A stretch of 61,799 nt of DNA, the filler included, from Dugesia japonica (Eukaryota): NCBI GenBank assembly GCA_001938525.1. It is 5 parts of 5 records of this genome, joined end to end, with 100 filler letters (N's around TTAATTAATTAA, not from the genome) between each part and the next. Parts side by side here need not be neighbours in the genome. Positions count along the whole stretch, not along the records: positions 10,749 to 27,540 come from MQRL01615268.1; 4 more parts are not named here. One strand, given 5' to 3'. Both the position numbers and the translations under genes were made by a program. Below are positions 8,000 to 52,825 of this stretch, piece after piece; position 1 is the first letter of the stretch; the number at the start of each line of letters is the position of its first letter. The notes under the pieces are model-generated. The model was not told where the DNA came from. It made no database searches and worked only from the letters and a program-made list of their open reading frames with translations.

Positions 8000-9070
8000 C
8001 CGTTTCTTTTTTAAATATTTTTTGATTTCTGTTGTTTTCCACAAAATTTTATTTAATATTGCCGTATTGATTTTCCCTTTCTTTGCTTCATCATGTATCA
8101 TCTGACATTGAACAGAGGTTTCACACTTCAACCGACCTTACCACTGAAAACTCCTTTTCTATATTTAATAGCTATATACAGACTGCTTAAATAGTTAAGC
8201 CAAGTTTGAAACTGCAGAGTAATTGGCTTCTTTGTAGTCATCATAAAAGTTATTGCTTTATGACCTTTTCGAAAAATAGACGTTCTTCCATATAAATAAT
8301 GTTTGAAATACACACAAAAAATTGGTACACTGCTAACAATTCTTTCTCGTAATACAATATCCATTTTTGGTGGCTTGTCATTGAATCAAAAACATTTTCT
8401 TACTTTTTACTATCTTTTTACGATAAAACTGTCCTAGAAACTTGAATCTATATCCAGTAAAAATTCTTATCCAAATCTTAAAATCTGAGTTGTCTGCAAC
8501 GCGTCCTTTAACCCATAAAAAATATTGTTCAAATCAATTTTTTTATAAGTCCATCCGCTGCATAANNNNNNNNNNNNNNNNNNNNNNNNNNCATACCCTT
8601 TTATGAATGTTTACAATAATTACAAAATCTAGTTTCACACTTTAACCGAGATTACCATTGAAAACTCTTTTTGGAATTCAAGAAAACTTTAGATTTTTTC
8701 TACACAATTCGGTTGTCTAAAATTCCTAATACCATCTATCTTCATGATATTTGTACATAATCTTTTCTCCCTATTAATAAAACCTAGAAATTTAATCTCT
8801 TTCTGAAGAAACACACATTTCCCGCATTTATTCTCAATTCCACATCCATAATTCTTGACAACGCCCAGTCAATAATTCTATAATGTTCTTCTTTTGAATT
8901 GGAGAAAATTAAGATGTTATCTAAATAAACCAACGCCACAACCAAACTTTCTTTGACTTTCATCATAATCTCTTGAAACGTCAAAGGAGCCGCCACTAAA
9001 AACCGGATTGTCTTTCTTTGATAGAAAAAGCTATTTTCCCCTGACTCTTCATCGAACTTTACCTTATAGT
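8000..9070 (-). mobile_element. Decayed Gypsy/Ty3 pol fragment (RT-RNase H)
   Basis: AAPLTFQEIM...VYLDNILIFSNSKEEH (YxDD-like) and FKHYLYGR...HKAITFMMTTKKPI...WLNYLSSL (RNase H end). Many stops and frameshifts. Similar to the element at 52.8-55.6 kb. Confidence 0.8.
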
Positions 9071-10579
9071 ATGTGTTCCCTTAGTCATTCAAACTTCTTT
9101 CTGTTTCGGGCTCTGCAAATATTGTAGCTGAGAAAACCATTTACTCAAATGGCAGTTATCAAAATGTAACTAGCAATATTATTTGTTGAACCAAAATCAG
9201 AAATTTTTGAAAATGGAATTATGATATTGACAGAGAGATAGAAATAAATTATCGACAATAATGAGCAATAGAATAAAGAATAAGATTAATAATTGCTTTT
9301 TATTTAATAGTAAAAAACCGAAGGAACTTTTCTTACAACGTAATAGTGTGATGACCATTTTTCGTGTTTAAAGTTATCAGTGAACTAATTGTAGTTTAAA
9401 ACATGATCAAAAAATATAACAATTTGTCAACCGTTTCTTAAATGATGACCAATTAACAATTTCATAGAAAGTCTAAATTGAAAATGAAAATAAATATTAG
9501 ACTGAGAAATACAATAAAAAAGAAAGTTATGAAGTTGTATAAATTTACAATGTAAATTTTAGGTCAATAATAAATTATTAAGTTCGTGAATCCTGGAAAA
9601 AACTGACTGATTATACAGAATCCGTACCAAATAGATAAAATTCCAAAAAATGTATTTTAATCATTTAAAGTTCTTATGATAATGTTTCATTTATAGTTAA
9701 TCTCCAAAGGAAATATTAAATGTTGATAATAAAGAGAAGGTTAAAGACTAATTCTTGAAAAATTTCAATAAATTTAATTTTAAATTTATACACTAAACTT
9801 GAATTTCGTTGATGGCACCTATTTTAGGTTTGCAGATGGGTAACACGAACCTAGCGCTGACTGAGTAAATAGCACACATACACAATTATATATAAATATT
9901 ACAAAAAATAGTCTGATTTTAATAATTTCATAAAACCTACAATTTGTCGATCCGGCAAATGTATTTTTTCAACACCAATACTTTCAACAAATAATTGCAG
10001 AAACTGTAACAGAAAAAGATAGAAAAAAATACCTTTCGCCATGGAAAATTTATTATTATTGTATTTTATAGATTCAATTTTGTTTTAATCAATGGGAAGA
10101 TATCAATTATTTTTCACCGCTGAATGAGTTCAGGAATTATGAGATGAACAATTACTGTTGAAAATGAACAAAATTTTGGTTGACAGATTTTAGACCTAAA
10201 TAAAATTCTCTAGACTAGTTAAATATTCTGCGATATTTACAAATTTTTTTTCAAACAATTACCAACTTATTTAACAGTTGTTACAGCTTGTGACAAAAAA
10301 TGTGACGTTTTATTCTTTCTGTATTAATATAATATATAAATTTTGTAATAACGGTTTTCAATGATATTTTCGGATAATTATTGAATTATCAATATTTTCT
10401 GGAAAAATTCTAAAAATTATTTAAAACAGTTTCTTGTCAGTGAAAATCTTTTCTCATTAATAATAAACAAGCTACTTTGTTATCAAAAGCTTTGAAATTA
10501 TATAAAGATAATTACTGGAAAATAAGTTAACCAAAAAATGTAATCAAATATAAATAATAATTAGAAAATCATTTTAAAA

Positions 10580-10692: not shown

Positions 10693-10704
10693 TTAATTAA
10701 TTAA
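10693..10704. other. Artificial TTAATTAATTAA scaffold spacer inside an N gap (also 27585-27596, 40445-40456, 52770-52781)
   Basis: The identical 12-mer, with stops in all six frames, sits centred in N runs at four sites. Confidence 0.85.
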
Positions 10705-10748
10705 NNNNNNNNNNNNNNNNNNNNNNNNNNNNNNNNNNNNNNNNNNNN

Positions 10749-10822
10749 TATTTAAATATCTTCAAAATGATATATAATTATATTGATTCAAATATGTAAA
10801 TATCTTCAAAATGATATATAAT
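10749..10822 (+). repeat. 44-bp minisatellite, left part (Polinton insertion target)
   Basis: Unit TTGATTCAAATAT(T/G)TAAATATCTTCAAAATGATATATAATTATA is truncated exactly at the AG start of the Polinton TIR. Confidence 0.85.
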
Positions 10823-10928
10823 AGTAATAGAGGAATAACGCTTACAAATCATGGGGGGACCCTTAAAATTCAGTATGGTAATTATGCTTATTACGCTTTT
10901 GGCTCAAGGGGGGGGGTTGTGTTATATT
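10823..10928 (+). repeat. Left terminal inverted repeat (~106 bp)
   Basis: Begins AGTAATAGAGG. 10840-10928 is the reverse complement of 26439-26524 except for G-run length (9 vs 6). Confidence 0.92.
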
Positions 10929-11127: not shown

Positions 11128-11775
11128 ATGAATGAAGGAAATTTATTAATAAATAAATACTTAGACCATAAAAAAAACAACCCCGATTTAAATGAAAAAG
11201 AAATATGCCAAGAAATTAATACAACAGTTACAATGTTACATAAGGCATTAAGAGCTAACTTTTATAAGATTCCAAGAAAAATATATCCTTTATTACATTA
11301 TAGTTATAATGAAGAAGATGATAAATTTGTAAAAGATAAAAATGGAATTTATTTTTTTAATATTAAAATTAAAGAGTTTGAATTATTATCTAAAAGAAAA
11401 AAACCAGATTTAACTGATAAAAGAACAATAGCACATAAAATTAGTAAAGGAAAAATAACAAGAAAAAAAATAATAAACCCAACAAGTGCCGGGGGAACAA
11501 TTAAAATTGATAATCAAAATTCTGAAGATGACTTATTTGATAATCAAAATTCTGAAGATAACTTATTTGATAATCAAAATTCTGAAGATAACTTATTTGA
11601 TAATCCAAATTCTGAAGATGACTTATTTGATAATCAAAATTCTGAAGATAACTTATTCGATAAGCTAAATGATAATAAGCAAAATGTTAAAAAAAACAGT
11701 GAAATGGATGAGATATTTGATAATATCAATATTGATTATAATATGAAATATTTATTAAAACCATATCGAAGATGA
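11128..11775 (+). CDS. Polinton hypothetical protein with a 10-aa tandem repeat
   Basis: 215-aa ORF preceded by TATAAA. Five 30-bp repeats encode DNQNSED(D/N)LF (~11508-11660). Confidence 0.7.
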   Translation: MNEGNLLINKYLDHKKNNPDLNEKEICQEINTTVTMLHKALRANFYKIPRKIYPLLHYSYNEEDDKFVKDKNGIYFFNIKIKEFELLSKRKKPDLTDKRTIAHKISKGKITRKKIINPTSAGGTIKIDNQNSEDDLFDNQNSEDNLFDNQNSEDNLFDNPNSEDDLFDNQNSEDNLFDKLNDNKQNVKKNSEMDEIFDNINIDYNMKYLLKPYRR

Positions 11776-11805: not shown

Positions 11806-13152
11806 ATGCTAGACTTAGATTATAATATTGAATTTCAACATACAGAAATTAAAAATGATATGCTAAAAATTTCACCCTCATCGGGTTCAATCAATAATTT
11901 AAATGCAAATGGAGATATCGTATTTCAATCTTTACAATCTACAAATCCATTAGACATTTGCAATGCGCTATTATATTTTAGAATTGAATTAACATTTGGA
12001 GATAAAAATATACACAAAGATAAAATAACTCTAGAAAATAATTTCTTTCCAAGTTTATTTAAATTAATGAGATTAACACTCGGATCTACACATATTGAAA
12101 CAATCAACGATCCAGGTGTAATTTCAACAATGTTAAATTTCATATCTACAACTGACACATTTAAAAAAGAACACGGACAATTATCAGGTTGGTTACCAGA
12201 TATTAATAAAGGAGATACACAACTAACAAGTTGGGAAACTAACTTGGGTTATTATAATAGAAAAAAACTTTATAACTCAAATAAATTTGAAGGTTATTTT
12301 CAATTAAGAAATTTATTTGGCTTCTTACAGAATTACAATCGGCTATTATACAATACGATGATAGAATTTACATGTACTCGTCATTTAGAAGATAAATTAA
12401 TATTCTATGGTGAAAAAGATACAACCGCATCATTAAAAATTTTAACTCTCGAACTTCACATTCCAGAAGTTAGATTATTACTAAAAAAAGAATTAATTCT
12501 ACTAGAACGTATAGCAACAAATAAACCAATTAAAGTTTCATTCTTAAATCGCTTATCTGCGAAATCAAATCTTGACACCGGAGGATATTATTCAATTAAA
12601 ATTAGCTCTTTGGCATATCAACCAAGATATATTTTAATTGGTTTTAAAGATCCTGGAAATTCATATCAAAAGAATAATAATTTATTTATACAAAGTACTT
12701 ATATAACAGAAGAAAAAACTGTAATAAAAGATTCAACAAAACCAACAGAAACAACTGTTGAAAAAGTGAAAACATATTCATATTTAAAAGGTATTCAGTT
12801 ACAATTAAACAATACTTATTATCCAATCAATGAATTAAGATTTAACAAAGAAAATAATGAAATGGCATATCCTTATTACCAATATATTAAATGTTGTCGT
12901 GAATTCTTAACAGAACCTCAATTATCATTAATGGATTATACTAATTTATATCCGCTGTTCTGTTTTGATGTCAGTGCACATGATGACAAAATGAATATTA
13001 ATAATGTTGATGTCACACTTCATATAACAAAAGATCCAGATTTCAAAGGAATTCTTTACTGGTGCATTCTCGAAGAAAAGCATGTTGAAATGAAACTTGC
13101 TAGTAATAAAATTGTTTTAATTGAAAATGTTAGAGGAGTTGATATAAAATAA
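11806..13152 (+). CDS. Major capsid protein (double jelly-roll, hexon-like)
   Basis: 448 aa with NFFPSLF, LRNLFGF, PRYILIGF, QLNNTYYP and LYPLFCFDVS motifs typical of Polinton/adintovirus MCPs. Size and context fit. Confidence 0.85.
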   Translation: MLDLDYNIEFQHTEIKNDMLKISPSSGSINNLNANGDIVFQSLQSTNPLDICNALLYFRIELTFGDKNIHKDKITLENNFFPSLFKLMRLTLGSTHIETINDPGVISTMLNFISTTDTFKKEHGQLSGWLPDINKGDTQLTSWETNLGYYNRKKLYNSNKFEGYFQLRNLFGFLQNYNRLLYNTMIEFTCTRHLEDKLIFYGEKDTTASLKILTLELHIPEVRLLLKKELILLERIATNKPIKVSFLNRLSAKSNLDTGGYYSIKISSLAYQPRYILIGFKDPGNSYQKNNNLFIQSTYITEEKTVIKDSTKPTETTVEKVKTYSYLKGIQLQLNNTYYPINELRFNKENNEMAYPYYQYIKCCREFLTEPQLSLMDYTNLYPLFCFDVSAHDDKMNINNVDVTLHITKDPDFKGILYWCILEEKHVEMKLASNKIVLIENVRGVDIK

Positions 13153-13417
13153 ATATAAGAAATATAAACATGTTAAAATGAAATAATAAAATTGTTTTAG
13201 TTGAAATGGAATATAAGAAATGAAACTTGCTAGTAATAAAATTGTTTTAATTGAAAATGTTAGAGGAGTTTATATAAAATAAATATAAGAAATATAAACA
13301 TGTTAAAATGAAATAATAAAATTGTTTTAGTTGAAATGGAATATAAGAAATGAAACTTGCTAGTAATAAAATTGTTTTAATTGAAAATGTTAGAGGAGTT
13401 GATATAAAATAAATATA
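13087..13417 (+). repeat. 130-bp tandem repeat (~2.5 copies) duplicating the MCP 3' end
   Basis: GAAATGAAACTTGCTAG starts at 13087, 13217 and 13347. Confidence 0.9.
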
Positions 13418-13421
13418 TAAA

Positions 13422-14849
13422 ATGTCCAAGTTCCTTTGTGATTATTGTGGTAAAGTATTATTAAAGAAAAATAAATCTCGACATTTAAATTTATGTATTA
13501 ATAAGAATGGAGGAGATCTTAGCATAGCACGAGATGGCGGCGACTTACAAAATTCAAGTTTTATATCTTCACTATTAAAACCTATAACAACAGAGAAATA
13601 TCCAGGTGAACGCCATCTTTTCAAACATAATTACACTGGGCCTGGTACCCGCCTAGATATCCGACTTGAACAAGATCCTGAAAATCCAAATTATATGAAA
13701 CCAAAACCAGGTGAAGAACCAGTTAATCAAGTTGATGCAGCTGCATTAAAACATGACATTGCGTATTCCAGTGAAAATATTGAAGATCGGCATATTGCTG
13801 ATGTACATTTAATACATGATCTTAATAATATTGAAAATCCAACTACAGCAGAAAAAATTCAAAGAGCCCTTGTAAAATTGGCTATGAAAGGTAAAATTAT
13901 GATTGGTCAAAGCGTTGCGAACCATAAAGGACAAGGAGCAAAAAAGAAAGACCCATATAAAAAAACAACAATTATTAAACAAGAATCTGATGATGAAATA
14001 GAACTTGAAAAAAGTGAGGTTTTATCTAAAGAACTTCACCATGAATTCCGAAAAACTAAACATTTTAGAAAAGTAATTGTCCATGAAAAAGATGAAATTT
14101 GGTCAGCCGATCTCGTATTTCAAGGCACAGAACGTAAAAATAAACAAGTAATATTAACAGTAATAGATCTTTATACCCGATTTGCGTTTATTGAATTAAC
14201 CAGTAATAAATCTGGACCTAAAATAACAGAAGCATTTGAAAGAATTCTAGAAAAAAGCTCTAGAACACCAGAGAAACTCTGGGTTGATGAAGGTACTGAA
14301 TTTTACAATCAACATTTTAAATCTTTCTGTAATAAAAATAATATTGAAATGTATTCTATTCAAAATAAAGGAAAAGCAGTTGTAATTGAAAGATTCAATC
14401 GAACATTAAAAAGTAAACTTTTTAAACATTTTACTTCCAGTGGATCTCAAGATATCACACTTAAACTCCTAGAACAAATTGTATTTGATTATAATAATAC
14501 AATACATTCAAGTATCAATATAACACCTCAAGAAGCTTCATTAAATCCAGAAAATATAAACTTAAAACCTGTAACAAAAACAAAAACCTTAAAAACAACC
14601 ACAAGGGCAACAAAACCTAAATTTAAAATTGGCCAACGTGTAAGAATAACCAAACTCTGAAAAACATTTCCTAAAGGTTACACATTTAAATGGTCAAAAA
14701 GAATTTATATAATTAGTGATATCCGTGAACAGTTTAATTATCCAAATAATCAAGGCCAAGAACCATTTACATATCAAATCTCACATCTTAACGGCAACAA
14801 AATACTTGTAAGCTTTTATACAAACGAACTTCAAAAGACATCATTATAA
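13422..14849 (+). CDS. Zn-finger + parvovirus-type PLA2 + rve (DDE) integrase fusion, with an in-frame TGA at 14658-14660
   Basis: CDYC...H...C zinc finger. PLA2 motifs YTGPG (Ca loop), VDAAALKHDIAY and RHIAD. Integrase motifs WSADL, TVIDLYTR, WVDEGTEF and IERFNRTLK. After the TGA the frame stays open for 62 codons (KTFPKGYTFKWS...TYQI...FYTNELQK*), the normal Polinton integrase tail. Confidence 0.92.
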
Positions 14850-14906: not shown

Positions 14907-15059
14907 ATGGATCTAGAACAAGAATTTGAAAATTTAATAATAATATCGCAAATGCGTAATACTGATAATCTAATTTATGATTTACAAGAAATTTCTTATG
15001 AAATGTATGAGAAAGAATTTGTTAATTTATGTGATATAGAAAAGAGCCATGACTTTTGA
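14907..15059 (+). CDS. Small acidic hypothetical protein (50 aa), below the ORF-track cutoff
   Basis: MDLEQEFENLIIISQMRNTDNLIYDLQEISYEMYEKEFVNLCDIEKSHDF*. Preceded by the same TATAAAA-ATG context as neighbouring genes, and overlaps the ATPase start. Confidence 0.5.
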   Translation: MDLEQEFENLIIISQMRNTDNLIYDLQEISYEMYEKEFVNLCDIEKSHDF

Positions 15060-15846
15060 TTCGCAGAAAGCAGTGTATATTTGGAATAATAATATTACAA
15101 AATTTAATAATAAAGTCTTACCAAATAATTTTAGATTATTAATTATAGGATCTNCAGGTTCAGGTAAAAATGTATTACTTATGAAAATGCTCTTGACACC
15201 TGATTTCCTAGACTATGACAATTTAATTATCTATTCTACAACTATTAATCAATTTGAGATTCAATTATTATATCTCGGATTTGAATCTGGATTATCAAAA
15301 GAAGATATTAGTTTAATATTTCAAAAGCAACATATCACACCTAAGAATCTAGATACACCAAATGAAGTTATTAAATATTTCATTGACAAGAAACTAGTTA
15401 CAACAACCACAAGGGCAACAAAAAAAACTCGGACCAAGAACTGGATAGATGTGACATTAAGTAATCGACCTGAAGAAATAATAACATGTGACAAGTTATC
15501 AAGAGACAAGAAAAATCTTATTATTTTCGATGATGTTGTTAACGAGAAAAATCAACAAATACAGAAATCTTATTTCACAAGAGGTCGCCATTCAAATTGT
15601 AATGTTATTTATATCTCCCAAACTTATTATGATCTCGATAAAAATTCAATACGTAATAATTCAAATTGTTACATCTTTTTCAAATTAAATAAAACTGATA
15701 AAAATAATGTTTATCATGAATTATTNNNNNNNNNNNNNNNNNNNNNNNNNNNNNNNNNNNNNNNNNNNAATCTCCATTGGAAAACTAAATATAATTATTT
15801 TTATCTTAACAAAGAAACTGATGAACTTTTAGATGATTTATTCTAG
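15049..15846 (+). CDS. DNA packaging ATPase (A32/FtsK-like)
   Basis: Walker A LLIIGSxGSGKN, Walker B LIIFDD, arginine finger FTRGRH, ISQ sensor and SIRNN. Contains a short N gap. Confidence 0.92.
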   Translation: MTFDSQKAVYIWNNNITKFNNKVLPNNFRLLIIGSXGSGKNVLLMKMLLTPDFLDYDNLIIYSTTINQFEIQLLYLGFESGLSKEDISLIFQKQHITPKNLDTPNEVIKYFIDKKLVTTTTRATKKTRTKNWIDVTLSNRPEEIITCDKLSRDKKNLIIFDDVVNEKNQQIQKSYFTRGRHSNCNVIYISQTYYDLDKNSIRNNSNCYIFFKLNKTDKNNVYHELXXXXXXXXXXXXXXXNLHWKTKYNYFYLNKETDELLDDLF

Positions 15847-16176
15847 TTTATTTCTCATAATTTCTTTTCTCATAATTTCTTCTAATTCTTCGTCTGTGTA
15901 TATAATTTTATAATTACTTCTTTTTTCTCTTTCTTTTTCATATTCAATTGCTTTTTGTCTTAATTTATCTCTTTTAATTTTTTTCGGTCGTTCTGACATT
16001 ATAAATCTATAATAATCGGTTCCTTTTTTAAATGGAATAGTCTTATCTTGTTCCTCACGTGTTTTATTTAACCATTCCCATGCTAAAATTTCATTTCTTT
16101 TTATTATTTCCAATTCACATTCATTATTATGTTTTTTATAATAAGATTCACAATAATCGATATAATCTGTTGTCAT
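15838..16176 (-). CDS. Polinton hypothetical protein (112 aa, highly charged)
   Basis: Clean ATG-initiated ORF, the last gene of the minus-strand block. It converges on and overlaps the ATPase stop. Confidence 0.6.
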   Translation of the reverse strand: MTTDYIDYCESYYKKHNNECELEIIKRNEILAWEWLNKTREEQDKTIPFKKGTDYYRFIMSERPKKIKRDKLRQKAIEYEKEREKRSNYKIIYTDEELEEIMRKEIMRNKLE

Positions 16177-16273
16177 TTTAAGATAAAAATTTTAATCATA
16201 GATATCAAATTCAACAATTTTAAGTGTTGCATATTAAATTCAACATATCAAATTCAACATATTAAATTCCTAA

Positions 16274-16873
16274 TTATATTCCTAGCTTAGCGCGCATTTC
16301 AGAAATAACTTTATTTTGATTTTCAAGTAATAATTTTAAATTATCATCTTTAGATTTTTTATGTCCTGATATTAATTCATGAACATCTGATACCATCTTT
16401 TTAGAAATACTTAATTCATCATCTGTTAAAATTTCATCATCAACTGCTTTCTGTTGAAATAAGAATAGTTTATTTTTAACACATTCAAGTTTAGTTATTA
16501 ATTTTGAATATCTTTCTTTTCGAGATTTAACAAATGAAGTGTTCATTGTTCCAATTACAGGCAGAACTGAAATGGCTCCCGTAATAATCGGGATTCCAAT
16601 TCCAGTCAATGCAATTCCAACTGGAGTTATAAATATTATACCAGCTATTCCAATTCCTGCACTTAAAAGTATCTGTGTATATTTAATTCCAGAATCAATT
16701 CTATTCCATTTCTTTTCTAATTTCTTATAATGTTTAANTTTATCTTTAATATAATACAAATCATTTTCAAAATCTTTAATTCTAGATAATGACAATTTAT
16801 TTTTTAAATCTTGAATAGTATAACTATCATCTCTTAGGCTAGGATAAATATTATTATCTTCTATCATTTTCAT
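16274..16873 (-). CDS. Membrane protein resembling the adintovirus 'gasderminX' type
   Basis: IYPSL N-terminus, helical region, Gly/Ile-rich hydrophobic hairpin (LLSAGIGIAGIIFITPVGIALTGIG) and KAVDDEILTDDE motif, as recalled from Polinton accessory proteins. Confidence 0.6.
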   Translation of the reverse strand: MKMIEDNNIYPSLRDDSYTIQDLKNKLSLSRIKDFENDLYYIKDKXKHYKKLEKKWNRIDSGIKYTQILLSAGIGIAGIIFITPVGIALTGIGIPIITGAISVLPVIGTMNTSFVKSRKERYSKLITKLECVKNKLFLFQQKAVDDEILTDDELSISKKMVSDVHELISGHKKSKDDNLKLLLENQNKVISEMRAKLGI

Positions 16874-17093
16874 TAATTAAAATTTGAAGCCGTCAATAAA
16901 TTACCAAGGATAATCATTTCTAGAATATTCTTTCATTCCATAAAGTAAATTTGGGTGTACTAAATGAAGTGTAATAAATTATTTCTTTTATACTTTTAAG
17001 TGTTGGCTCATCTCCATTATAAGTTTTTATTAAAGTATCAATTCTCTTAACCTGAGATTCATTAAGATATTCTTTCAATATTTCATCTGGAAT

Positions 17094-18878
17094 TTAAAAT
17101 GTAATTAATTTAACATTTAAATTCATTAAAAAAATTTCTTTTGGTAACATTATTTCTATAAAATTTATTTTATTTACATTTAAAATTTCTTTGCTTTCTC
17201 GATAAATATTCATAAGATTATCATTAGGTTTAACAAATAAAAATGTTACTGCAACATGATTAATTTTAATGTAATAACTAAATTTTGGAACTTCACAGAA
17301 ACCATCTATACTTATTCCAACTTTATTATTTAATTTTGTATATAATGAAATAATTAAAGAATCTTTAATATTAAAATAATGATCACTGAATGTTGTATGT
17401 TTTATACAATCTTTTCTTGTAAAATCTAAATCATTTACATATTCATTAATACTATAACTTGGGAGTAAATCATTTTTCTTCATTGGAATAATTGAAAATA
17501 GGAATGGATTAGAATCCAATTTATAGGGTAAATAATTATCAATTAAATGTTTTATTTTTTGAATGTTAAATGTTTCAGATAAAATATTAAATTTATCAAT
17601 AAAATATTTATGAAGATTAGATTTTATCTTATCAAATTCTTTAGTTATATCTTCATATTTTTTACTGTTATCTAACATTTGTCTTATAGCTTTATTATCT
17701 AATTTTTCAAATAATAAATCAATATTGTTAATTTGTTTTTTATTAAATTTTGGTTTTATTTTTTCATACTCTTCTTTTAATTGTTCATTTGTTACCATTT
17801 TTTCTCTCTCAACACTTAAACCATATATCCAAAATCCTTTTGGTAAAATTATTTCAAGTAAATTTATTTCTGTTTCAGTGACATCTTGTCCAAATTCATT
17901 ATAATAATTTTCATCCCCAGTATTTGTATAATCATAAATAATATTATTAATATTAATAGTATAATGAAAGGTTTTATTTTTATAATAACAACCCTTTATA
18001 TAAACATAAATTTTTTCATTTATCTTTGTGGTTAATTTAACAGAAAAATCATTTAAAAGATAAAAATGGTGATTTTCCATTTTACCTTTTATTTTAAAAT
18101 CTAAATTGGTAACATATTCACCCATAACACTAAATTGTAGAAGATCGCTTTTATCATCGCAAATAAGTGAAAATATGTGTTTTTTAGTGTCAAGAAAAAC
18201 ATATGGTAAATAATTATCAATTAAATCTTTTATTTTTTCGAATGAATTAGATTTAAATAAAATGTTAAATTTATTAATAAAACTTTTATGTAGTTTTGGT
18301 TTTATCTTTTCATACTCAATTAATATTGTAAAGTAGTCAAAAGTTTTCTTATCCAAATCATCATCCAATTCTTCAATTTCTTTTTTCAATGTAACATTAA
18401 CGAATTGTCCGGAGGTCAGCGTAGCACCTTCTTTTAATTTAACTAATAAATCACTTTTTTTATATGAAAAAACAGATAATCTTAATCTTTCAATTTCATT
18501 TTTGATATCATTATATTTTGATATTGAACATTTATTTGTTAGATTTTGAATTTTAAGGTTCTAATCCGGATTATTCAAACGTTCAGCTTTATATTGTAAA
18601 TAAAGTTTATTGATTTCAGTTTGATCCAGTTTTAATAATTTAGTGAATATTAATTCATGTTTCTGTAATTTATCTTCAAGAGATTTAATATATTTTAAAT
18701 TAACTGCATCATTTAATTCTATAGGATCATCTATGATTTTTAAGCATGTTATAATATCACCTGTTTCATTTACAAATTTATTTTCAGCATATGACTCTGA
18801 CATTTTAATTTTAGCATTTACAGATTTTAATATTTCTGTTGAATCGTTGGAATCAGCTTTCACACCAAACTTATTCAT
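17094..18878 (-). CDS. Putative fibre/receptor-binding protein. Track ORFs 18561-18878 and 17094-18389 are one frame split by a TAG at 18561-18563
   Basis: The 57 codons between the two ORFs are in frame and open. N-terminal fibre-like motif DPIELNDAVNLKYI. Two copies of a ~170-aa module (KIKxxLHKxFIxKFNIL...KIKxLIDNYLPY...EYVxxLDF...EIxLPK). Confidence 0.65.
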
Positions 18879-18954
18879 CTCTTTTTTAATATTCTATTAT
18901 AAAGATCTAACATTTCACTGTTGAAATTTTAAATAAAGATCTTTCATTTCACTG

Positions 18955-19395
18955 TTAAAATGTTGCACTTGAATCTTTAGTTTTTTCTAATATTCTATTA
19001 TAAAGATCTAACATTTCAGATATAATATCTTCAAATTCAATATGCTGGATCTTATATAAAAAATAAATACATAAGATTCCACATATTTCAGTGTTAAAAT
19101 GTTGCACTTGAATTTTATTGTAAACTTTTACACTTGGGATTTCTTTTAATGGTTTTAAACCAAAAGAATCGAAATATTGATGATTATGGTAAGCAACCCA
19201 ATGTGTTCCATTTTGATTTGAATTTTGATAATTAAAAATATAATTCATTCCAGGAGCAATCCTCCATTTTTCATTTTTCATGTAAATTTCGAGATCCATT
19301 TTTAAAAAGTTGGATATTGAATATAAATCAAAATTTGTGGTCATGTTGATTCCAAATGTTTTTAAAAAATCTAATAAGTTATATGCTTCTGACAT
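18955..19395 (-). CDS. Adenain-like cysteine maturation protease
   Basis: Catalytic motifs GTHWVA (His), YFDSFG (Asp) and Q...CG..C (Gln/Cys). Confidence 0.92.
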   Translation of the reverse strand: MSEAYNLLDFLKTFGINMTTNFDLYSISNFLKMDLEIYMKNEKWRIAPGMNYIFNYQNSNQNGTHWVAYHNHQYFDSFGLKPLKEIPSVKVYNKIQVQHFNTEICGILCIYFLYKIQHIEFEDIISEMLDLYNRILEKTKDSSATF

Positions 19396-19493: not shown

Positions 19494-20306
19494 TTATAAT
19501 CGATATTTTCTTAGATGAACTAAAATTGTAATTGTTTCTTGGTTAAAATCTATCGTGTTAAAGTTTTCATCTACGATGTTAAATTTAAAATCATCAATGT
19601 AATCTGTGTTAATTTTAGAATAAATAGGAGGTGATGGTCGTTCAACTATTTTATATCCAAATGGAACTGTATTAATAGGAAATGAATATAAAAGATTAAT
19701 TTGTTTTGTTTTTGTTTCTTCTACCTTCGATGTAACATAGTTACCTTTAACAATGTCACATGTAATATTTAACGCGTTAATATTTGTAATATTAATTTTA
19801 TTTTCTGAATAATAATTTCCAGGTTCATACTTTCCAGGTTTAAATCCTAGGATCTCGTGAAAGAATGAATTAGAATCAAAAGTTATTGTTACTTTAGTTT
19901 TAATGTTACATTTAGATGTTGCAGTGTCAGGTTTAATCTCTAGATATTTTTCTAATCGATTTGACATTTCTCTAACTTCATATGATCCAGGTTCTAGGTA
20001 TTTTTCCCCTTTTATGTCTTCATATTGTGGCTTTATGGTTGTTGGTTTTTGTGGTTGTTGTTGTTGTTGTGGTTGTTGTTGTGATAGCCCTGTGTCTTCC
20101 TTTATGGTTTTGGTTGTTGGTTGTTGGTTTATTAAGATTTTACCTTCAACATGGAATTTATTATTTAAATCGGTAATATTAAAAATTATATTGTAGCATG
20201 AAAAATATAACAATCCAAGTTCGTATTCTGAATCTAATTTTATTGGATAATCCATGTTAACTTTTAAATTATCTTCTGTTCCAACTACTAAGAATTGATG
20301 AGACAT
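19494..20306 (-). CDS. Minor capsid protein (penton, single jelly-roll) with a poly-Q insertion
   Basis: YPIKL..EYELGL, FNIT..NNKF, PGSYE, ILGF, ITCDIV, GYKIVERP and IVDEN...IDF...HLRK motifs of Polinton pentons. Confidence 0.85.
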   Translation of the reverse strand: MSHQFLVVGTEDNLKVNMDYPIKLDSEYELGLLYFSCYNIIFNITDLNNKFHVEGKILINQQPTTKTIKEDTGLSQQQPQQQQQPQKPTTIKPQYEDIKGEKYLEPGSYEVREMSNRLEKYLEIKPDTATSKCNIKTKVTITFDSNSFFHEILGFKPGKYEPGNYYSENKINITNINALNITCDIVKGNYVTSKVEETKTKQINLLYSFPINTVPFGYKIVERPSPPIYSKINTDYIDDFKFNIVDENFNTIDFNQETITILVHLRKYRL

Positions 20307-20329: not shown

Positions 20330-21637
20330 TTATTTAAAATATTTGGACTTATATTTTTTATAAATAATATCCGACAATAGTCCTTTAGATTTTAATTGTT
20401 TACAGAGAGTCTTGATTTCGGATGAGAGATTATCATGTCCAGATTTTGCAGCTGAAATTAATAATGTTAACTTTTCAAATAATGCTAATGGATTTTGTTT
20501 TCTGTTTTTATGACCACTTCCACTTTTTATCTTTAAATAATTATAATATGAATCATTTTTAGGTGGTTTTACCAAATCTAAATATAATGGAATATATTTT
20601 TTTCTTGTTTCTATAAATGATGAATTTATTTTTTCTTTATTTCCTGAAATTAAATCTATTAAAATATTATTAAATGAATTAGCTTTTATTCCTTCAGAAA
20701 CATAACTAGTGGTGTCCCTTTTATAAAAAAATATTTCTTTATCATTTTTAGGAAATTTTAATGTTAAGAATTTTTTATCATTAACAGTTGTATAATACAT
20801 TTTTGGTGTTGTTAATTCTGTTAATGAATCTGTTAAATTAAAATCATCAATTTTTAAAATTGGATGTACTTTATCTTTTTTAAATATTTCTAATATTTCT
20901 TCTTGTTGTCCTTGTGGTTTTTCTAGCTTTATGGATCTTTCTTCCTCTATTTCATAATCAGATTTATTATATTCTGGTTCAGATTCTGGTTCTGGTTTAG
21001 TTAATATAGCATCGTCTTCTGTTTTCTTTCTTGTTATTCTTTTAGGTGGTTTTCCAGGATCAACTTTTCTAAATTTATTTTTTAATTTAGTAACATAATC
21101 ACAATTAGTTGGTAAAGGAGATATTAATTTTAAATAAGTCTCAATTTCTTCAGGTGATTCTTTACCATCAATATTTCCTAGGATCATTCTAAAAATTCCA
21201 TCTGAGTATGGTATAACTTCGGATTTAAATAAGAAATATTTATTATCGAGTTCGGAGAATAAATGAATTTTATTTTCTTTTAGGGTTATTTCTAGAAAAC
21301 TTTTAATTTTATCAAGTGCTATGACATCTAATTTAGAAAACCTAGGGATAATTGTTTGAGTTAATTTTCCGGTGGCATTTATGTTTTCAATGTAATATTC
21401 GGGTATGAATGGTAAAATTTTTTTATTTAAAAAGAATTTTGTTATATCATTAGTTTCTGGTTTAATTTCTCGTGATGTTTTAAGTTTTTCAATTGCAGAG
21501 ATCATTGGAAGTTGTAGACTTGACAAGTTAGATTGTAAACTGTTAAAATCTTGAACTTTAGAACAAAAAAAGATATTATATTTTTCTTGAGCTTTAATTA
21601 ATGCTTTTAATTCTTTAATTCTTTGTTCGACTTCCAT
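20330..21637 (-). CDS. Conserved Polinton protein of unknown function
   Basis: 435 aa. The C-terminal GSG...NPLALFEKLTLLISAAKSGHDNLSSEI...LKSKGLL matches the recurrent Polinton motif P..L..RL.LL..S..AGN....EI..I...L...G.I. Confidence 0.75.
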   Translation of the reverse strand: MEVEQRIKELKALIKAQEKYNIFFCSKVQDFNSLQSNLSSLQLPMISAIEKLKTSREIKPETNDITKFFLNKKILPFIPEYYIENINATGKLTQTIIPRFSKLDVIALDKIKSFLEITLKENKIHLFSELDNKYFLFKSEVIPYSDGIFRMILGNIDGKESPEEIETYLKLISPLPTNCDYVTKLKNKFRKVDPGKPPKRITRKKTEDDAILTKPEPESEPEYNKSDYEIEEERSIKLEKPQGQQEEILEIFKKDKVHPILKIDDFNLTDSLTELTTPKMYYTTVNDKKFLTLKFPKNDKEIFFYKRDTTSYVSEGIKANSFNNILIDLISGNKEKINSSFIETRKKYIPLYLDLVKPPKNDSYYNYLKIKSGSGHKNRKQNPLALFEKLTLLISAAKSGHDNLSSEIKTLCKQLKSKGLLSDIIYKKYKSKYFK

Positions 21638-21716: not shown

Positions 21717-22373
21717 TTAATAATCATCTGTTTCATAATCATCGGTTACATAATCATCTTCGGTTTCATAATCTTCGGTTTCGGTTTCGTTATCTATTTC
21801 TCCTCCATTATATGTAGGATATGGATTTAAATATAAACCATTTCCTTTCTTAATTATACGAGTTCCAGATTTAAACTTTTTAGTTAAATTTTTAAATTTA
21901 GGATCAATATTTCTTAAATATTTATGTATTGCGGTTCCTTGATATGGATTTAGATATATTCCCTGGCCTTTGTGGTCTTTCTTTTTATGGTTTTTGATTC
22001 CTGATCCTGATGTTCCTGGTCCTTCTGCCTTTATGGATCTTCCTGTGGTTAGTTTTTTAGCTTCAACTTCTTTTTGGATATCAATTAATTCACCTTCTTT
22101 TTGTTTGTTAATTGTTTCTCTCGATTTTGCAACTGTTTTTGCGACACCAGCTGCAATACCGGATGCAACACCTGCTGCAGCACCTGTAGTTGCTAATGCT
22201 GCAATAATTGCTGGTAATGCTGCTAAGAATGCGAAACCACCTTCAGAATGTTTTTTAATAGCCTCATCTTTAACTTTTTCAGAAATATAATAATTTTTAC
22301 CATTAATACGTACAGATTTACATTTTCTAGAATTTATAATTTTAATTAATTCTTCTTCTGTTGCTTCTGACAT
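21717..22373 (-). CDS. Core protein with an adenovirus pX-like amphipathic segment
   Basis: GGFAFLAALPAIIAALATTGAAAGVASGIA resembles the adenovirus pX segment GGILPLLIPLIAAAIGA. Basic body, repeated KGxG(I/L)YLNPY and an acidic repeat tail. Confidence 0.7.
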   Translation of the reverse strand: MSEATEEELIKIINSRKCKSVRINGKNYYISEKVKDEAIKKHSEGGFAFLAALPAIIAALATTGAAAGVASGIAAGVAKTVAKSRETINKQKEGELIDIQKEVEAKKLTTGRSIKAEGPGTSGSGIKNHKKKDHKGQGIYLNPYQGTAIHKYLRNIDPKFKNLTKKFKSGTRIIKKGNGLYLNPYPTYNGGEIDNETETEDYETEDDYVTDDYETDDY

Positions 22374-22522: not shown

Positions 22523-25500
22523 CTAACGAGAGCAAAGAGTGCATTTATTTATTAGATCTAATCTGAAATGCCATTGTTCACACTCACATAGATATTGATT
22601 ACCATGTGGCCATGTTTTAATTCCATCATCATCAATTATTCTTTTATCATCATATGCCATTAATACAATTTTTCTTTGTTCTTGAATTTCAATTTCATGA
22701 TTTTCTGATTTTAATGAGAAATTTGTTCCATAGATTGTTTTCTTTGAATTATTTAATATTGAATCAAAATCTCGCATTAATAATTCATTATTTTTCTTGA
22801 CACCTTTATTTTTATAATCATGTCCTTCTTTATTTTCCTCTTTATTGAAAAATGAATATGCATAAGATTTTGCTTTTACAAAATCACCTTGTAAAATTTC
22901 ACATTTAGGTTTTTCATCTTTCATCTGGAAAAGATCCTCTCCTAATAATTTTTCTAATTTTATTAAATTATCTCTACCTTTTACCTCGACAAAGATACAA
23001 TCCGTGTCGGTATAATGAATTTTATAGTTATCTTCTCCAAGTAATGGTTGCATTTGAATGTAAATAAAATCATACATCACTTGTTTTGCATGTTCGAGAA
23101 TTGTGAAGCCAATATATGGAAATTTATTATATCTTAATTTCCCCTTTTCCATTAGTATTGCAGCAACTGTGGCTTCATTTGAATCATCTAAACAGAAGAT
23201 TTTAGATGATTTAAATGTTGGTTTAGATGCAAGTCTTTGATATGCTTTGTCAGTAGAAACAATTTCTATGTTACATCGATTACGGATATTCTCTAGGGTT
23301 TTCCCATAGAATGCGTTTATCATTAATTTATAAATATAATCTCCGAAGACATCTTTATTTTTTTTAGCTGCTTTTCTTAAAACCACTAAATTTTCAACAT
23401 GATCTTTAAGCCATGTTGAAACCGGCATTTTAATCTTTTTATGAATCTTTACTAGTTTCATGCCAAGTTTTAAATAGAGATCTAATGTTGAACCGAGGAC
23501 AATATAATTCTTTTTATCAAATTGGTTTAATGTAAGTTTAATGTTATCTTTTAATATTTTCTTGTTAAATGATTTTTGATAGTTGCTTAACATGTCTTCT
23601 GTAATATTTATTCTTTCGGGACATAATGGGAAATATTTTGTCTTATCATGGATCTCTCTAGGATATTCAAGATCAACTTCGTAAATGAAATTAATTTTTT
23701 CTGTGGGTGCTTCATATAGTAACTCCCCAGACTCATTCGGTTGACACACGTAAAATTCACCTGTTGGTAACGGTCTTGTCATGCAAGATGCATATAATGA
23801 ATTTTCATCAATATATTTTATAAATGTTTCTTCCATTAGATTATCAATATATTTATCTGGAATAAATTCGTGAGTGTTCATTGTTTTTATTAGATCTTCA
23901 TATTGTGTTTTATTTAATTTTCTAGTTGATTGATTTTTATTATATGAGAATACTTGACGCTCACCTAATGTGCCAGAATACCCACCTCGAATTCCCTCTT
24001 CAATCATTAAGAAAATATCATAGGTTTGGGGTTTGGCATATTTTAAATAAACACCAGCATTTAACATTCCAGTTTCCCATGAATATTCTGGTGCTGAATA
24101 TGAATAACATGGATCTAATTTCAAGAGATTATTTAAACATGAATTTCTAAAGTTTTCTAAGAAGTCTGTTAGAATTAAAATATCAAGTTTCATATAGTGA
24201 AGCATGTAATCCCACATGTTATTAAAATCTAAATAATCTATTAAAAATTCATCATATTTATCGTTGGGTATTTCTTTTTGAGTTAGAGTGTTAAAGAAAT
24301 CTTTTCTAGTTGGTGTTCTCTTTTTCTTTAATAATTCTTCAACTTCAGTGATAGTGTTGCCTTTTACATATTCATATGGAAATGAGATTTTCTTGGGTTT
24401 TAAATTGAAAGATTTTAAGATTGGATAATTACCTGAAGATGTTAACAAATCACCCATAATTTCAACTGGTGTATTTGGTAATAATCTTGCCGAATCTAAG
24501 AATTTAATATTTCGAAATTGAAATGAAATATAATTATCTGATGTGTGAGGAATTATCTTTTTTACTTTTCCTGGAAATCTTGTTAGAAGTTCTCTGAAAA
24601 ATAAATGATTATCATAGCCGGATGCGTTATGAAAATAAAATGGTATGAATAGATTTTTTACAGAAAAGTCGTATAAATTACATTTTTCATGTGAATAACC
24701 ACGGAATTCACCTGTGAAATGATTATGATCTATAACTGGTTTCTTTTCAATGAAAGGTTTGTTACAATAATAACACTTTTGATCTATGAATTCTGGGGGT
24801 TGTCCGGAGAATTCGATTATTAATTTATTTTCTTTTATATCTTTTATTTTTTTACTAATAGAATCTAAAAAATTAAAGAAAGCTATATTAAGATTTTCAC
24901 CTGTTAAACAATAATATTTAGATTCTAGTAATTCTTGATGTTCACTATGAAGATAAATTCCTAGAGACAATGCTTTTTGTTTTTTCTTTGAATTTGTGTA
25001 TGCTTCAAAATCACCTATTAATAAGAAAGGTAATTTATTTTTCTGGTAAAATTTCTTAAATAAATAATAATGTTTGCGTTCAAATACAATGTTATTTGGT
25101 TTGTGGTTAATGCATGCTTCTTGATGTTTCTTTAGGACTTCTTCAGAAGAATAGGAATTCATACATCTTATGCATGGATAACATTTATTTCTTGCTCTTG
25201 TGAAAAATATACCTAGATCCCGACATAAGACATAATGCTCTTTATATATCAAGAGATTACATTTATTTTCTTCTTGCGAAGGTTTTGCTGTGTGATGTGA
25301 AATGTGCAAAGGTTCAAGTTTCTTTTTATCATTTGTGGCGAAAACATTTATTTTAAAATCATTTAATTTCTCGAATTTGGAAATATCAATAATTTTCATT
25401 GGAAATGTGAAATTTGAATATTTTAATTCTTCTAAATATGGAATGTAATTAGAAACACGCGATGCATTTGGTAATGGATGTTTGTGAGCTAGAATTGAAA

Positions 25501-26329
25501 ATAGAAAACATTTATCATCTTTATTTTCTATGTTAATTACTCCTTGTTTTTTAAATGGTAATTTACAATATGTAGCACCACTTTTTCCATCATATTTATT
25601 TAAGAATAATGTATAATCAGCTAGATATAGCATTGTCCAACCCGAACCTTCAAGATTTCTTTCTTCAATGCGTTTATTTAAAAGATTAAATATTTCATTG
25701 ACAATGTTATTAATTTCAGATCGAATTATAATTATTTTATTATCTGAAGGTGTTTTAAAATCTCTTTCGGTATCTTCTTTTAAATATCTAGTTGTTACCG
25801 ACAAACTTACAATTATTTGTTTTTCACATTTTAAATATTTCTTAATAATTAGATTTATATCTCTTTTAAATTTATTAATCATTCTAATTGGATTTTCGTG
25901 ATTTAATACAATATCATAAAACAATTCCGTTTTAGAATCTTTGAAATAAGATATTTCATGTTTTTTAAACATTCTTAGTGCATCTCTAATTTCAGGCTCA
26001 TAATCAATCGCCTCTTCACCTGGAAGTTCATCAAAATTTAATTTATTAACTTTTTGTTTGTGTTGTAAAGAATTAAAATGTTCTCGAGCATTACTTTCAC
26101 TTTTAAATTTTAAATTACAAATTTTACATTTTAATGGAAATTTTTCACGATTTCCACATGTATAATTTAAATGCGAATTTAAATCACTTTCTCTTTTAAA
26201 TCTTTTATTACATTTTTCACATTTAAATGTTAAATCATTATAGCAAGTTCTAGATGCAATATGCCCATTTAAACCTGCTTTATTTTTAAACGTTTTATTA
26301 CAATTGTCGCATTTAAATATTTCCGGCAT
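22523..26329 (-). CDS. polB: Protein-primed family B DNA polymerase with N-terminal zinc fingers
   Basis: Three C2H2/C2HC fingers. GDFEA (ExoI), DHNHFTGEFRG..H..CN (EndoVII-like), FHNASGYD (ExoII), YMKLD (ExoIII), DENSLY (motif A), KLMINAFYGK (B) and YTDTD (C). Intact 1268 aa. Confidence 0.96.
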   Translation of the reverse strand: MPEIFKCDNCNKTFKNKAGLNGHIASRTCYNDLTFKCEKCNKRFKRESDLNSHLNYTCGNREKFPLKCKICNLKFKSESNAREHFNSLQHKQKVNKLNFDELPGEEAIDYEPEIRDALRMFKKHEISYFKDSKTELFYDIVLNHENPIRMINKFKRDINLIIKKYLKCEKQIIVSLSVTTRYLKEDTERDFKTPSDNKIIIIRSEINNIVNEIFNLLNKRIEERNLEGSGWTMLYLADYTLFLNKYDGKSGATYCKLPFKKQGVINIENKDDKCFLFSILAHKHPLPNASRVSNYIPYLEELKYSNFTFPMKIIDISKFEKLNDFKINVFATNDKKKLEPLHISHHTAKPSQEENKCNLLIYKEHYVLCRDLGIFFTRARNKCYPCIRCMNSYSSEEVLKKHQEACINHKPNNIVFERKHYYLFKKFYQKNKLPFLLIGDFEAYTNSKKKQKALSLGIYLHSEHQELLESKYYCLTGENLNIAFFNFLDSISKKIKDIKENKLIIEFSGQPPEFIDQKCYYCNKPFIEKKPVIDHNHFTGEFRGYSHEKCNLYDFSVKNLFIPFYFHNASGYDNHLFFRELLTRFPGKVKKIIPHTSDNYISFQFRNIKFLDSARLLPNTPVEIMGDLLTSSGNYPILKSFNLKPKKISFPYEYVKGNTITEVEELLKKKRTPTRKDFFNTLTQKEIPNDKYDEFLIDYLDFNNMWDYMLHYMKLDILILTDFLENFRNSCLNNLLKLDPCYSYSAPEYSWETGMLNAGVYLKYAKPQTYDIFLMIEEGIRGGYSGTLGERQVFSYNKNQSTRKLNKTQYEDLIKTMNTHEFIPDKYIDNLMEETFIKYIDENSLYASCMTRPLPTGEFYVCQPNESGELLYEAPTEKINFIYEVDLEYPREIHDKTKYFPLCPERINITEDMLSNYQKSFNKKILKDNIKLTLNQFDKKNYIVLGSTLDLYLKLGMKLVKIHKKIKMPVSTWLKDHVENLVVLRKAAKKNKDVFGDYIYKLMINAFYGKTLENIRNRCNIEIVSTDKAYQRLASKPTFKSSKIFCLDDSNEATVAAILMEKGKLRYNKFPYIGFTILEHAKQVMYDFIYIQMQPLLGEDNYKIHYTDTDCIFVEVKGRDNLIKLEKLLGEDLFQMKDEKPKCEILQGDFVKAKSYAYSFFNKEENKEGHDYKNKGVKKNNELLMRDFDSILNNSKKTIYGTNFSLKSENHEIEIQEQRKIVLMAYDDKRIIDDDGIKTWPHGNQYLCECEQWHFRLDLINKCTLCSR

Positions 26330-26438: not shown

Positions 26439-26524
26439 AATATAACACAACCCCCCTTGAGCCAAAAGCGTAATAAGCATAATTACCATACTGAATTTTA
26501 AGGGTCCCCCCATGATTTGTAAGC
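26439..26524 (-). repeat. Right terminal inverted repeat (visible part; runs into gap)
   Basis: Reverse complement of 10840-10928. Confidence 0.92.
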
Positions 26525-42480: not shown

Positions 42481-42559
42481 GATTTGATTTTTTATTTTCT
42501 TTATTAATAAGTTTCTTTATTTCATCTTCTTGTTCTGTTTGTTGAATTTTTTGTTTACT

Positions 42560-46092: not shown

Positions 46093-46136
46093 GCACATAT
46101 AACTATATTATTATTAGTTTAATGATTTTTCTCCAG

Positions 46137-52725: not shown

Positions 52726-52825
52726 NNNNNNNNNNNNNNNNNNNNNNNNNNNNNNNNNNNNNNNNNNNNTTAATTAATTAANNNNNNNNNNNNNNNNNNN
52801 NNNNNNNNNNNNNNNNNNNNNNNNN

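What the first reader, a model, noticed from the sequence alone, without database searches (positions are those of the whole stretch)
13422..14849. Polinton integrase fused behind a zinc finger and a catalytically intact parvovirus-type phospholipase A2
Seen: a single uninterrupted frame carries CxxC...H...C, then PLA2 (YTGPG Ca-loop, HD dyad, downstream Asp), then a DDE integrase. Established: this PLA2 type mediates endosomal escape in parvovirus VP1, and PLA2-like genes are reported in adintoviruses/Polintons, to my recollection mostly as separate or core-protein-linked genes. Inference: fusing a virion membrane-lytic enzyme to the integrase would load the integrase into particles, coupling entry and integration as in a retroviral polyprotein.
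Basis: partly seen in the sequence, partly recalled or inferred. Interest (0 to 1): 0.8.

Follow-up and report, generated by a model that had tools for sequence, protein, structure and literature searches.

The report
Polinton phospholipase–integrase fusion protein
A virus-like mobile element makes its membrane-breaking enzyme and its DNA-inserting enzyme as one protein, a common but apparently undescribed arrangement that probably packs both into the virus particle, where the element's own protease cuts them apart.

Summary
The fusion is real. One frame (13422-14660, 412 aa) holds a C2HC finger, a parvovirus-type PLA2 with all catalytic-motif residues, and a DDE integrase core, inside a repeat-bounded Polinton/Maverick. 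It is not uninterrupted to 14849: an in-frame TGA at 14658-14660 cuts off 62 conserved C-terminal residues, so this copy's integrase is probably defective. The fusion is not peculiar to this copy: 107 of the 120 best relatives have it, including gene models of a coral, a pseudoscorpion and (partly) a limpet; 139 of 142 keep all seven catalytic residues. The zinc finger is an optional leader (12 of 156). Added here: the PLA2 is bracketed by GG or GxG motifs, the sites cut by the related mavirus protease (126 of 138 linkers), and six protease-integrase fusions carry the same motif. Best reading: a virion polyprotein matured by the element's adenain-like protease. Against: the motif is inherited from unfused PLA2 genes, a tree-aware test was uninformative, and nothing was assayed. 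PLA2 genes in Polintons and integrase packaging in mavirus are already published; ten literature searches found no description of the fusion. New variant of a known kind.

The parts
10823..10913 (+). Left terminal inverted repeat of the Polinton; starts at about 10823 where the flanking 44-bp tandem repeat stops
   Evidence: 74-nt perfect inverted arm 10840-10913 / 26451-26524; junction read
11128..11775 (+). 215-aa ORF with 30-nt tandem repeat, function not assigned
   Evidence: no Pfam hit
11806..13152 (+). Major capsid protein (double jelly roll)
   Evidence: PF21738 E 1.5e-17
13087..13417 (+). 2.5 copies of a 130-bp unit repeating the end of the capsid gene; makes up nearly all of the spacer before the fusion gene
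13422..14660 (+). Zinc finger-PLA2-integrase fusion ORF, 412 aa, ending at a premature TGA
13437..13496 (+). C2HC zinc finger leader (aa 6-25), optional in the family
13509..13544 (+). Two GG-D motifs (aa 30-32, 39-41): candidate protease sites ahead of the PLA2
   Evidence: aa 39-41 column conserved; GG/GxG upstream in 67 of 80 relatives with a long enough leader; cleavage inferred
13542..13910 (+). Parvovirus-type phospholipase A2 domain: YTGPG 13632-13646, HDIAY 13752-13766, Asp 13800-13802
   Evidence: PF08398; profile hits AAV VP1, E 8e-4; best fold match rice secreted PLA2, weak
13905..13937 (+). PLA2/integrase junction: conserved Gly162 (here G-Q-S, neither GG nor GxG) and, 8 residues on, HKGQG: candidate protease site
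   Evidence: the same HKGQG occurs in the pX-like ORF; cleavage inferred
14010..14657 (+). rve integrase core; D 14109-14111, D 14286-14288, E 14388-14390
   Evidence: PF00665; Foldseek to retroviral integrases E 2e-11
14661..14849 (+). In-frame integrase C-terminal tail cut off by the TGA; no chromodomain follows
15049..15846 (+). A32-like packaging ATPase (contains Ns)
   Evidence: PF04665 E 1e-9
15838..18878 (-). Four accessory ORFs (112, 199 with hydrophobic segment, 343, 105 aa), unassigned
   Evidence: the 199-aa ORF has a relative in L026
18955..19395 (-). Adenain-like cysteine protease, 146 aa, with HW, DxFG and Q-x6-C motifs
   Evidence: sequence; weak Peptidase_C5 E 0.044; 7 tblastn matches in fetched Polinton-like loci, best E 4e-17
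19494..20306 (-). Probable minor capsid (penton) protein
   Evidence: tblastn E 1e-16 to the corresponding ORF of Polinton L013; the label is my recognition, no library hit
20330..21637 (-). 435-aa probable core protein (label recalled), one GxG near the C-terminus
   Evidence: no library hit
21717..22373 (-). pX-like core protein, 218 aa, six GG/GxG motifs; separate from the PLA2 in this element
   Evidence: its relative in L026 (E 1e-8) hits Adeno_PX at E 0.002, below cut-off; Atlas lead; motifs
22523..26329 (-). Family B DNA polymerase, 1268 aa, with three N-terminal zinc fingers and an endonuclease-VII-like insert
   Evidence: polymerase motifs visible in the translation; Pfam found only the fingers and Endonuclease_7
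26451..26524 (-). Right terminal inverted repeat; the true end lies in the N gap that starts at 26526

Best explanation
The ORF is the integrase gene of a Polinton (Maverick) lineage in which the integrase is made as a virion polyprotein: optional zinc-binding leader, PLA2, integrase. Shown: the domain order, its spread, the conserved catalytic residues, separate folding units, and GG/GxG motifs at both PLA2 boundaries. Inferred: the precursor is packed into the capsid by the route that normally takes in the PLA2 core protein; the element's adenain-like protease cuts at the glycine motifs during maturation; the freed PLA2 (about 15 kDa) helps breach the endosomal membrane on entry, and the freed basic integrase (pI about 9.7 for the part encoded before the stop) arrives with the genome and can integrate it without new gene expression. 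The junction site was probably inherited from PLA2X, where the same motif separates PLA2 from the pX peptide, so the integrase took the place of pX. This particular copy is probably integration-defective because of the premature stop.
For: Fusion in 107 of 120 top hits and in 32 of the best 150 50%-identity representatives, plus one in reverse order. 139 of 142 full-coverage fusions keep His, Asp, Tyr, Asp of the PLA2 and D, D, E of the integrase. AlphaFold gives pLDDT under 50 at aa 31-41 and 164-188, just where the motifs lie. Gly at the PLA2 helix end in 136 of 138 fusions, as GG or GxG in 122, with GG/GxG somewhere in the linker in 126, against 11 such sites in 34,324 residues of the integrase parts; 13 of 15 scored clusters at 50% identity and 41 of 46 at 60% keep it. 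Six protease-integrase fusions, at two places on the integrase tree, all carry GG/GxG just before the integrase (6 of 6), which cannot be a PLA2 structural feature. The mavirus protease cuts GG|X and GX|G, and native mavirus virions contain the integrase and a processed predicted hydrolase (PMC6048507 passages). In the window the densest cluster of these motifs is in the pX-like core protein, which shares HKGQG with the linker. The element has no other PLA2 or integrase. Canonical PLA2X in L013 and P0348 has the motif between PLA2 and a basic/pX tail. Only 43 of 155 linkers contain a Met.
Against: No activity, cleavage or virion data. The motif is also kept where PLA2 ends the protein and a cut would remove only 1-8 residues (P0153, P0156, P0349, P0352), so it may be structural or merely inherited. 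The apparent trade-off between GG and GxG (Fisher p 6e-8) did not survive a tree-aware test: only 2 independent pairs on well-supported branches, not significant. The window's own protein lacks GG/GxG at the conserved position and relies on a second motif 8 residues on; 12 of 138 fusions have none in the linker. GG also occurs in the leader of 10 of 31 other long integrases, nine of them apparently inside a conserved N-terminal region. The 4-of-85 figure for short stand-alone integrases uses shorter windows and is not a matched control. Most integrases among the best 150 representatives (117) are unfused, and mavirus packs an unfused one, so fusion is not required for loading. The fold match of the PLA2 is weak (Foldseek E 0.18; VIA Z 6.4, rmsd 3.4 over 83 residues, tied with unrelated helical pairs).
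Confidence: 0.6

Rival explanations
1. The protein stays in one piece. The PLA2 (with its long amphipathic last helix) carries or tethers the integrase-DNA complex to membranes, for example endosome then nuclear envelope; the glycine motif is only a helix cap inherited from PLA2X.
For: Motif kept at the very C-terminus of stand-alone PLA2s; 12 of 138 linkers lack it; linkers can be as short as 6 residues; tree-aware test uninformative.
Against: The same motif precedes the integrase in 6 of 6 protease-integrase fusions; a second motif sits upstream of the PLA2 in 67 of 80; more distant PLA2s keep one Gly but not the second (P0366-P0376 shown); linker length ranges 6-253 with no conserved sequence.
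Confidence: 0.17
2. The fusion is an economy of gene arrangement: neighbouring genes lost the stop between them several times, and the integrase is produced separately by internal initiation, splicing or host proteolysis; it says nothing about virion loading, and the PLA2 may act in egress rather than entry.
For: Fused and unfused forms interleave on both trees (at least 4-5 changes forced by well-supported branches); the three closest PLA2s to the window's outside P0002/P0005 are short stand-alone proteins; in one chromodomain-bearing clade near-identical integrases are called both with and without the PLA2; 92 of 155 have a Met in the last PLA2 helix or linker; coral integrase expression clusters apart from capsid genes (PMC11131425 passages).
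Against: 112 of 155 linkers have no Met; many short 'stand-alone' hits are visibly broken fusions or may be contig-end fragments; the partners fused to the integrase (PLA2, protease) are both predicted virion proteins.
Confidence: 0.18
3. Chance read-through or assembly artefact in one decaying copy.
For: The copy has a premature stop, an adjacent 130-bp duplication and N gaps elsewhere.
Against: 157 of 374 held proteins have the same order in one frame, across 16 clusters at 50% identity and in named genomes; no N in the ORF.
Confidence: 0.02

Closest known systems
PLA2X of Alpha adintoviruses / group 2 Polintons (PMC8502044; also PMC3671162, PMC4642659, PMC5803895)
   Same: Same PF08398 PLA2, same proposed entry role, same glycine motif at the end of the PLA2 helix (L013 and P0348).
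   Different: In PLA2X the C-terminal partner is a pX-like peptide and the integrase is a separate gene with a chromodomain. Here the partner is the integrase, the pX-like protein is its own gene, and no chromodomain is present (14 of 156 fusions have a chromo-like motif).
Mavirus virophage (PMC6048507)
   Same: rve integrase and a predicted lipid hydrolase are in the virion; the viral cysteine protease cuts GG|X and GX|G and probably processes the hydrolase.
   Different: MV02 and MV13 are separate genes; MV13 is an alpha/beta hydrolase, not a PLA2. Mavirus data are experimental; here all of this is inferred.
Parvovirus VP1 unique-region PLA2
   Same: Same motif set; profile match to AAV VP1 at E 8e-4.
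   Different: There the PLA2 is an extension of the capsid protein, with no integrase.
Retroviral Gag-Pol polyprotein (general knowledge)
   Same: Integrase of the same fold at the C-terminus of a precursor thought to be cut in the particle; some relatives even fuse protease to integrase.
   Different: DNA virus, cysteine protease encoded separately in this element, no reverse transcriptase, no HHCC domain. An analogy, not membership.

Membership tests
Polinton/Maverick (Polintoviricetes) | rve-family integrase | tested here: met
   PF00665 above cut-off; D230, D289, E323; Foldseek. C-terminal tail cut off by a stop in this copy.
Polinton/Maverick (Polintoviricetes) | Family B (protein-primed) DNA polymerase | tested here: met
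   1268-aa ORF with B-family motifs seen in the translation; Pfam did not report a polymerase family; protein priming itself not tested.
Polinton/Maverick (Polintoviricetes) | [quoted passage not shown] | tested here: met
   PF21738 E 1.5e-17; PF04665 E 1e-9
Polinton/Maverick (Polintoviricetes) | Adenain-like protease and minor capsid protein | tested here: met
   Protease motifs plus weak Peptidase_C5; both ORFs match the corresponding ORFs of Polinton L013; penton label is by recognition.
Polinton/Maverick (Polintoviricetes) | Terminal inverted repeats, 15-20 kb length | tested here: met
   Arms 10840-10913 / 26451-26524; about 15.7 kb
Polinton/Maverick (Polintoviricetes) | Target-site duplication | not testable with these tools
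   Right end lies in an N gap
Alpha adintovirus as defined in PMC8502044 | PLA2X gene (PLA2 with C-terminal pX) | tested here: not met
   The only PLA2 is fused to the integrase; pX-like ORF is separate
Alpha adintovirus as defined in PMC8502044 | Integrase with C-terminal chromodomain | tested here: not met
   No Chromo hit on the frame read to 14846 with X at the stop
Alpha adintovirus as defined in PMC8502044 | OTU domain in PolB; hexon clustering with the Mayetiola reference | not tested
   No capsid or polymerase phylogeny was run; group 1 versus group 2 left open
Parvovirus-type PLA2 (PF08398) | YxGxG calcium loop, HDxxY, downstream Asp | tested here: met
Parvovirus-type PLA2 (PF08398) | Secreted-PLA2-like fold | tested here: inconclusive
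   Best match rice PLA2 2wg7 in both searches, but Foldseek E 0.18 and VIA Z 6.4, rmsd 3.4, 83 aligned
Parvovirus-type PLA2 (PF08398) | Calcium-dependent phospholipase activity | not testable with these tools
   needs an assay
Retroviral-type integrase polyprotein | HHCC zinc domain, reverse transcriptase and aspartic protease in the precursor | tested here: not met
   Finger is CxxC..H..C and lies before the PLA2; Pfam finds only PLA2 and rve
Retroviral-type integrase polyprotein | Cleavage by the viral protease in the particle | not testable with these tools
   Only candidate motifs

The most novel reading that the evidence does not exclude
Several Polinton lineages have independently turned their integrase into the C-terminal part of a virion polyprotein (behind PLA2 or behind the maturation protease), released at GG/GxG sites. 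This would be a DNA-virus parallel to retroviral Pol processing, and sequence-level evidence that Polintons, for which no virion has been seen, integrate straight from an incoming particle rather than as intracellular transposons.
Probability: 0.4. Interest if true: 0.7.

Novelty: new variant of a known kind. Interest (0 to 1): 0.45.

Why it matters
Whether Polintons are real viruses with an extracellular stage is an open question: a 2026 preprint still states that no virions have been observed (10.64898/2026.06.19.733378, passages). A conserved fusion of the integrase to an entry enzyme, with predicted cut sites for the capsid maturation protease, makes most sense if the integrase travels in a particle, and it gives a cheap test (two proteins in a tube). 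The window copy itself is an ordinary, probably defective example; the value lies in the family-wide pattern.

Tried and rejected
Alternative genetic code or programmed read-through for the TGA: not supported; ORF215 of the same element also ends in TGA, and relatives simply have a continuous frame. Compensation between GG and GxG as proof of cleavage: significant by Fisher, not after allowing for the tree, so not relied on. Genomic context of fusion-bearing relatives: the scan of genome contigs gave 55 loci, only 2 with a PLA2 (L013 unfused, L040 a short broken fusion), so whether fusion-bearing elements generally lack a second PLA2 is known only for this window. Phage records: no match. PHROGs: only transposase and endonuclease VII hits. 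Sequence search of solved structures with the whole protein: only weak integrase hits. A control from parvovirus VP1 sequences (no protease) was sought but none was returned. Cluster membership and source names for ten proteins could not be obtained, and DNA for the metagenome-derived relatives was not available, so stop codons of the short stand-alone PLA2s, dN/dS and sister copies in the same genome stayed unchecked. No complex prediction was run (enzyme-substrate pair). Monophyly of the fusion was not formally tested; the FastTree integrase tree (261 cores, shorter matches left out) is weakly supported at depth, so the number of origins is open.

Full report
Observation. The frame that starts at ATG 13422 encodes, without stop or N, a CxxC..H..C finger (aa 6-25), a parvovirus-type PLA2 (YTGPG 71-75, HDIAY 111-115, Asp127) and an rve integrase core (D230, D289, E323). 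Pfam scores both enzymes above cut-off. The tail is homologous to the C-terminus of 194 held relatives, and 117 of 137 fused relatives extend 40 or more residues beyond this point. So the fusion claim stands, 'uninterrupted to 14849' does not, and this copy's integrase lacks most of its conserved C-terminal part.

Setting. The gene lies in a 15.7-kb element bounded by inverted repeats and inserted in a 44-bp tandem array; the right end is in a gap. It carries a jelly-roll capsid gene, A32 ATPase, a cysteine protease, a probable penton, a pX-like core gene and a family B polymerase (motifs; no Pfam polymerase hit). This is a Polinton/Maverick. It has one PLA2 and one integrase, both in this ORF. 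The host DNA is AT-rich and holds an intron-split cytochrome-b5-domain gene, a tetraspanin and decayed retroelements, consistent with an animal; I did not identify it.

How common. Of 472 homologues the best 120 were listed; 107 carry both domains by profiles built here. Of the best 150 representatives at 50% identity, found with a profile of 72 fusions, 33 carry both (one in reverse order) and 117 only the integrase; the other thousands of hits were not classified. Over all 374 proteins examined, 157 are PLA2-integrase fusions and 139 of the 142 that cover all sites keep seven catalytic residues. Named records include Oculina patagonica, Cordylochernes scorpioides and Lottia gigantea, whose gene models run from the PLA2 into the first integrase residues. 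The ESM Atlas has two clusters (184 and 111 members) with both families, scores 0.78 and 0.75, leads only. The leader varies: of 156 relatives 99 have a short one or none, 13 a four-cysteine ribbon, 12 a C2H2-type finger, 15 something else, 17 are partial. On an integrase tree the fusions fall on several branches mixed with unfused forms; some unfused calls may be fragments or start-codon choices, and the number of origins was not tested.

Anatomy. AlphaFold models three separate units with low-confidence stretches at aa 31-41 and 164-188. The core matches retroviral integrases. The PLA2 model (pLDDT 88) has rice secreted PLA2 as best match in two searches, weakly, and its profile hits AAV VP1. 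The two disordered stretches hold glycine motifs. At the end of the PLA2 helix 136 of 138 scored fusions have Gly, 122 as GG or GxG; 126 have such a motif in the linker; the integrase parts have 11 in 34,324 residues; 67 of 80 have one upstream (2 of 140 and 60 of 140 were unscorable for the two tests). The window's protein has G-Q-S at the conserved place and HKGQG eight residues on, a string it shares with its pX-like protein. The mavirus protease, the nearest characterised relative I found, cuts GG|X and GX|G, and native mavirus particles contain the integrase and a cleaved predicted hydrolase (PMC6048507). Six relatives fuse an adenain-like protease to the integrase; all six have the motif before the integrase.

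Results against. The motif is also present in canonical PLA2X and where PLA2 ends the protein, so it is inherited and might be structural. The GG-versus-GxG trade-off is not significant once the tree is used. Twelve of 138 linkers lack it. Ten of 31 other long-leader integrases also show a GG nearby. Fusion is not required for packaging (mavirus). Nothing was assayed.

Mechanism. Most likely (0.6): a virion polyprotein in which the integrase has replaced pX behind the PLA2, is packed with it, and is released by the element's protease; the PLA2 aids membrane penetration, as proposed for Polinton lipases in PMC4642659 and PMC8502044, and the integrase arrives with the genome. Rivals: an uncut tether (0.17), gene-packing economy with separate expression (0.18), artefact (0.02).

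Literature. Ten searches of the open-access library found no passage describing a PLA2-integrase fusion. Seen: PMC8502044 passages, section 3.1 and part of the supplement (slide files unreadable, archive cut before its sequence files); 10.1101/2024.03.25.586562 passages and one section (supplements not seen); passages only of PMC11296320, PMC5803895, PMC3671162, 10.64898/2026.06.19.733378, PMC4642659, PMC7805220, PMC6048507, 10.64898/2026.10.13.758929, PMC11161782, 10.1101/2022.07.12.499685, PMC12220804; PMC11131425 passages and a 4-kb supplement text. Subscription papers, the original Polinton descriptions and Repbase were not seen, and unseen supplements may already annotate the fusion. The retroviral Gag-Pol comparison and the labels 'penton' and 'core protein' for unannotated ORFs rest on my own knowledge.

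Verdict. A real, widespread and conserved variant of a known element. PLA2 in Polintons is known and the architecture already sits in databases; the processed-polyprotein reading appears unpublished and is easy to test. Interest 0.45.

Noticed in passing
P0108, P0114, P0119, P0177, P0201, P0224: Polinton-type integrases fused behind an adenain-like protease, each with GG/GxG at the junction; at two places on the integrase tree.
   Followed up: partly
P0222; P0346; P0369, P0371, P0372: Other arrangements: integrase-chromodomain-PLA2 (reverse order); PLA2-zinc ribbon-integrase in a pseudoscorpion; PLA2-like domain joined to a C48/C5 protease.
   Followed up: partly
window 14595 and 15403: An identical 21-base stretch occurs in the integrase gene and in the ATPase gene, read in the same frame (TTTRATK) in both, in low-conservation segments; unexplained.
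   Followed up: partly
window 13087-13417, 17031-18374, 18881-18977: Several internal duplications of gene ends or parts in the element (capsid end 2.5 copies; pieces of the 343-aa ORF; end of the protease gene).
   Followed up: partly
window 10749-10822 and 26742-27008: The element sits inside a 44-bp AT-rich tandem array that continues on both sides.
   Followed up: partly
window 22523-26329 (-): The polymerase also begins with zinc fingers, two of them C2HC like the one on the integrase fusion.
   Followed up: no
window about 40583-43940 (-): Broken, gapped frames with Monjiviricetes (chuvirus-type) fusion glycoprotein hits (E down to 3e-23), preceded by unassigned frames: a decayed viral insertion or envelope-bearing retroelement.
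   Followed up: no
window 39071-39922 (-); short similar stretches at 38820, 45723, 50849: Intronless tetraspanin-family ORF (E 2e-9), with a 60-80-base segment repeated three times nearby.
   Followed up: no
window 45978-46438 and 50542-50772 (+): Exons of a host gene with a cytochrome b5-like N-terminus; resembles CYB5D1 (name recalled).
   Followed up: no
window 8128-9080 and 52774-55607 (-): Decayed LTR retrotransposon pieces (RT, RNase H, zinc knuckles).
   Followed up: no
L001-L055: Many bacterial and archaeal MAG records contain contigs with Polinton-type integrases; L013 is a near-complete Polinton in a Gammaproteobacteria bin, probably mis-binned eukaryotic or viral DNA.
   Followed up: partly
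window gaps, e.g. 10694-10705, 27586-27597: A fixed TTAATTAATTAA string sits inside N gaps, an assembly linker rather than biology.
   Followed up: no
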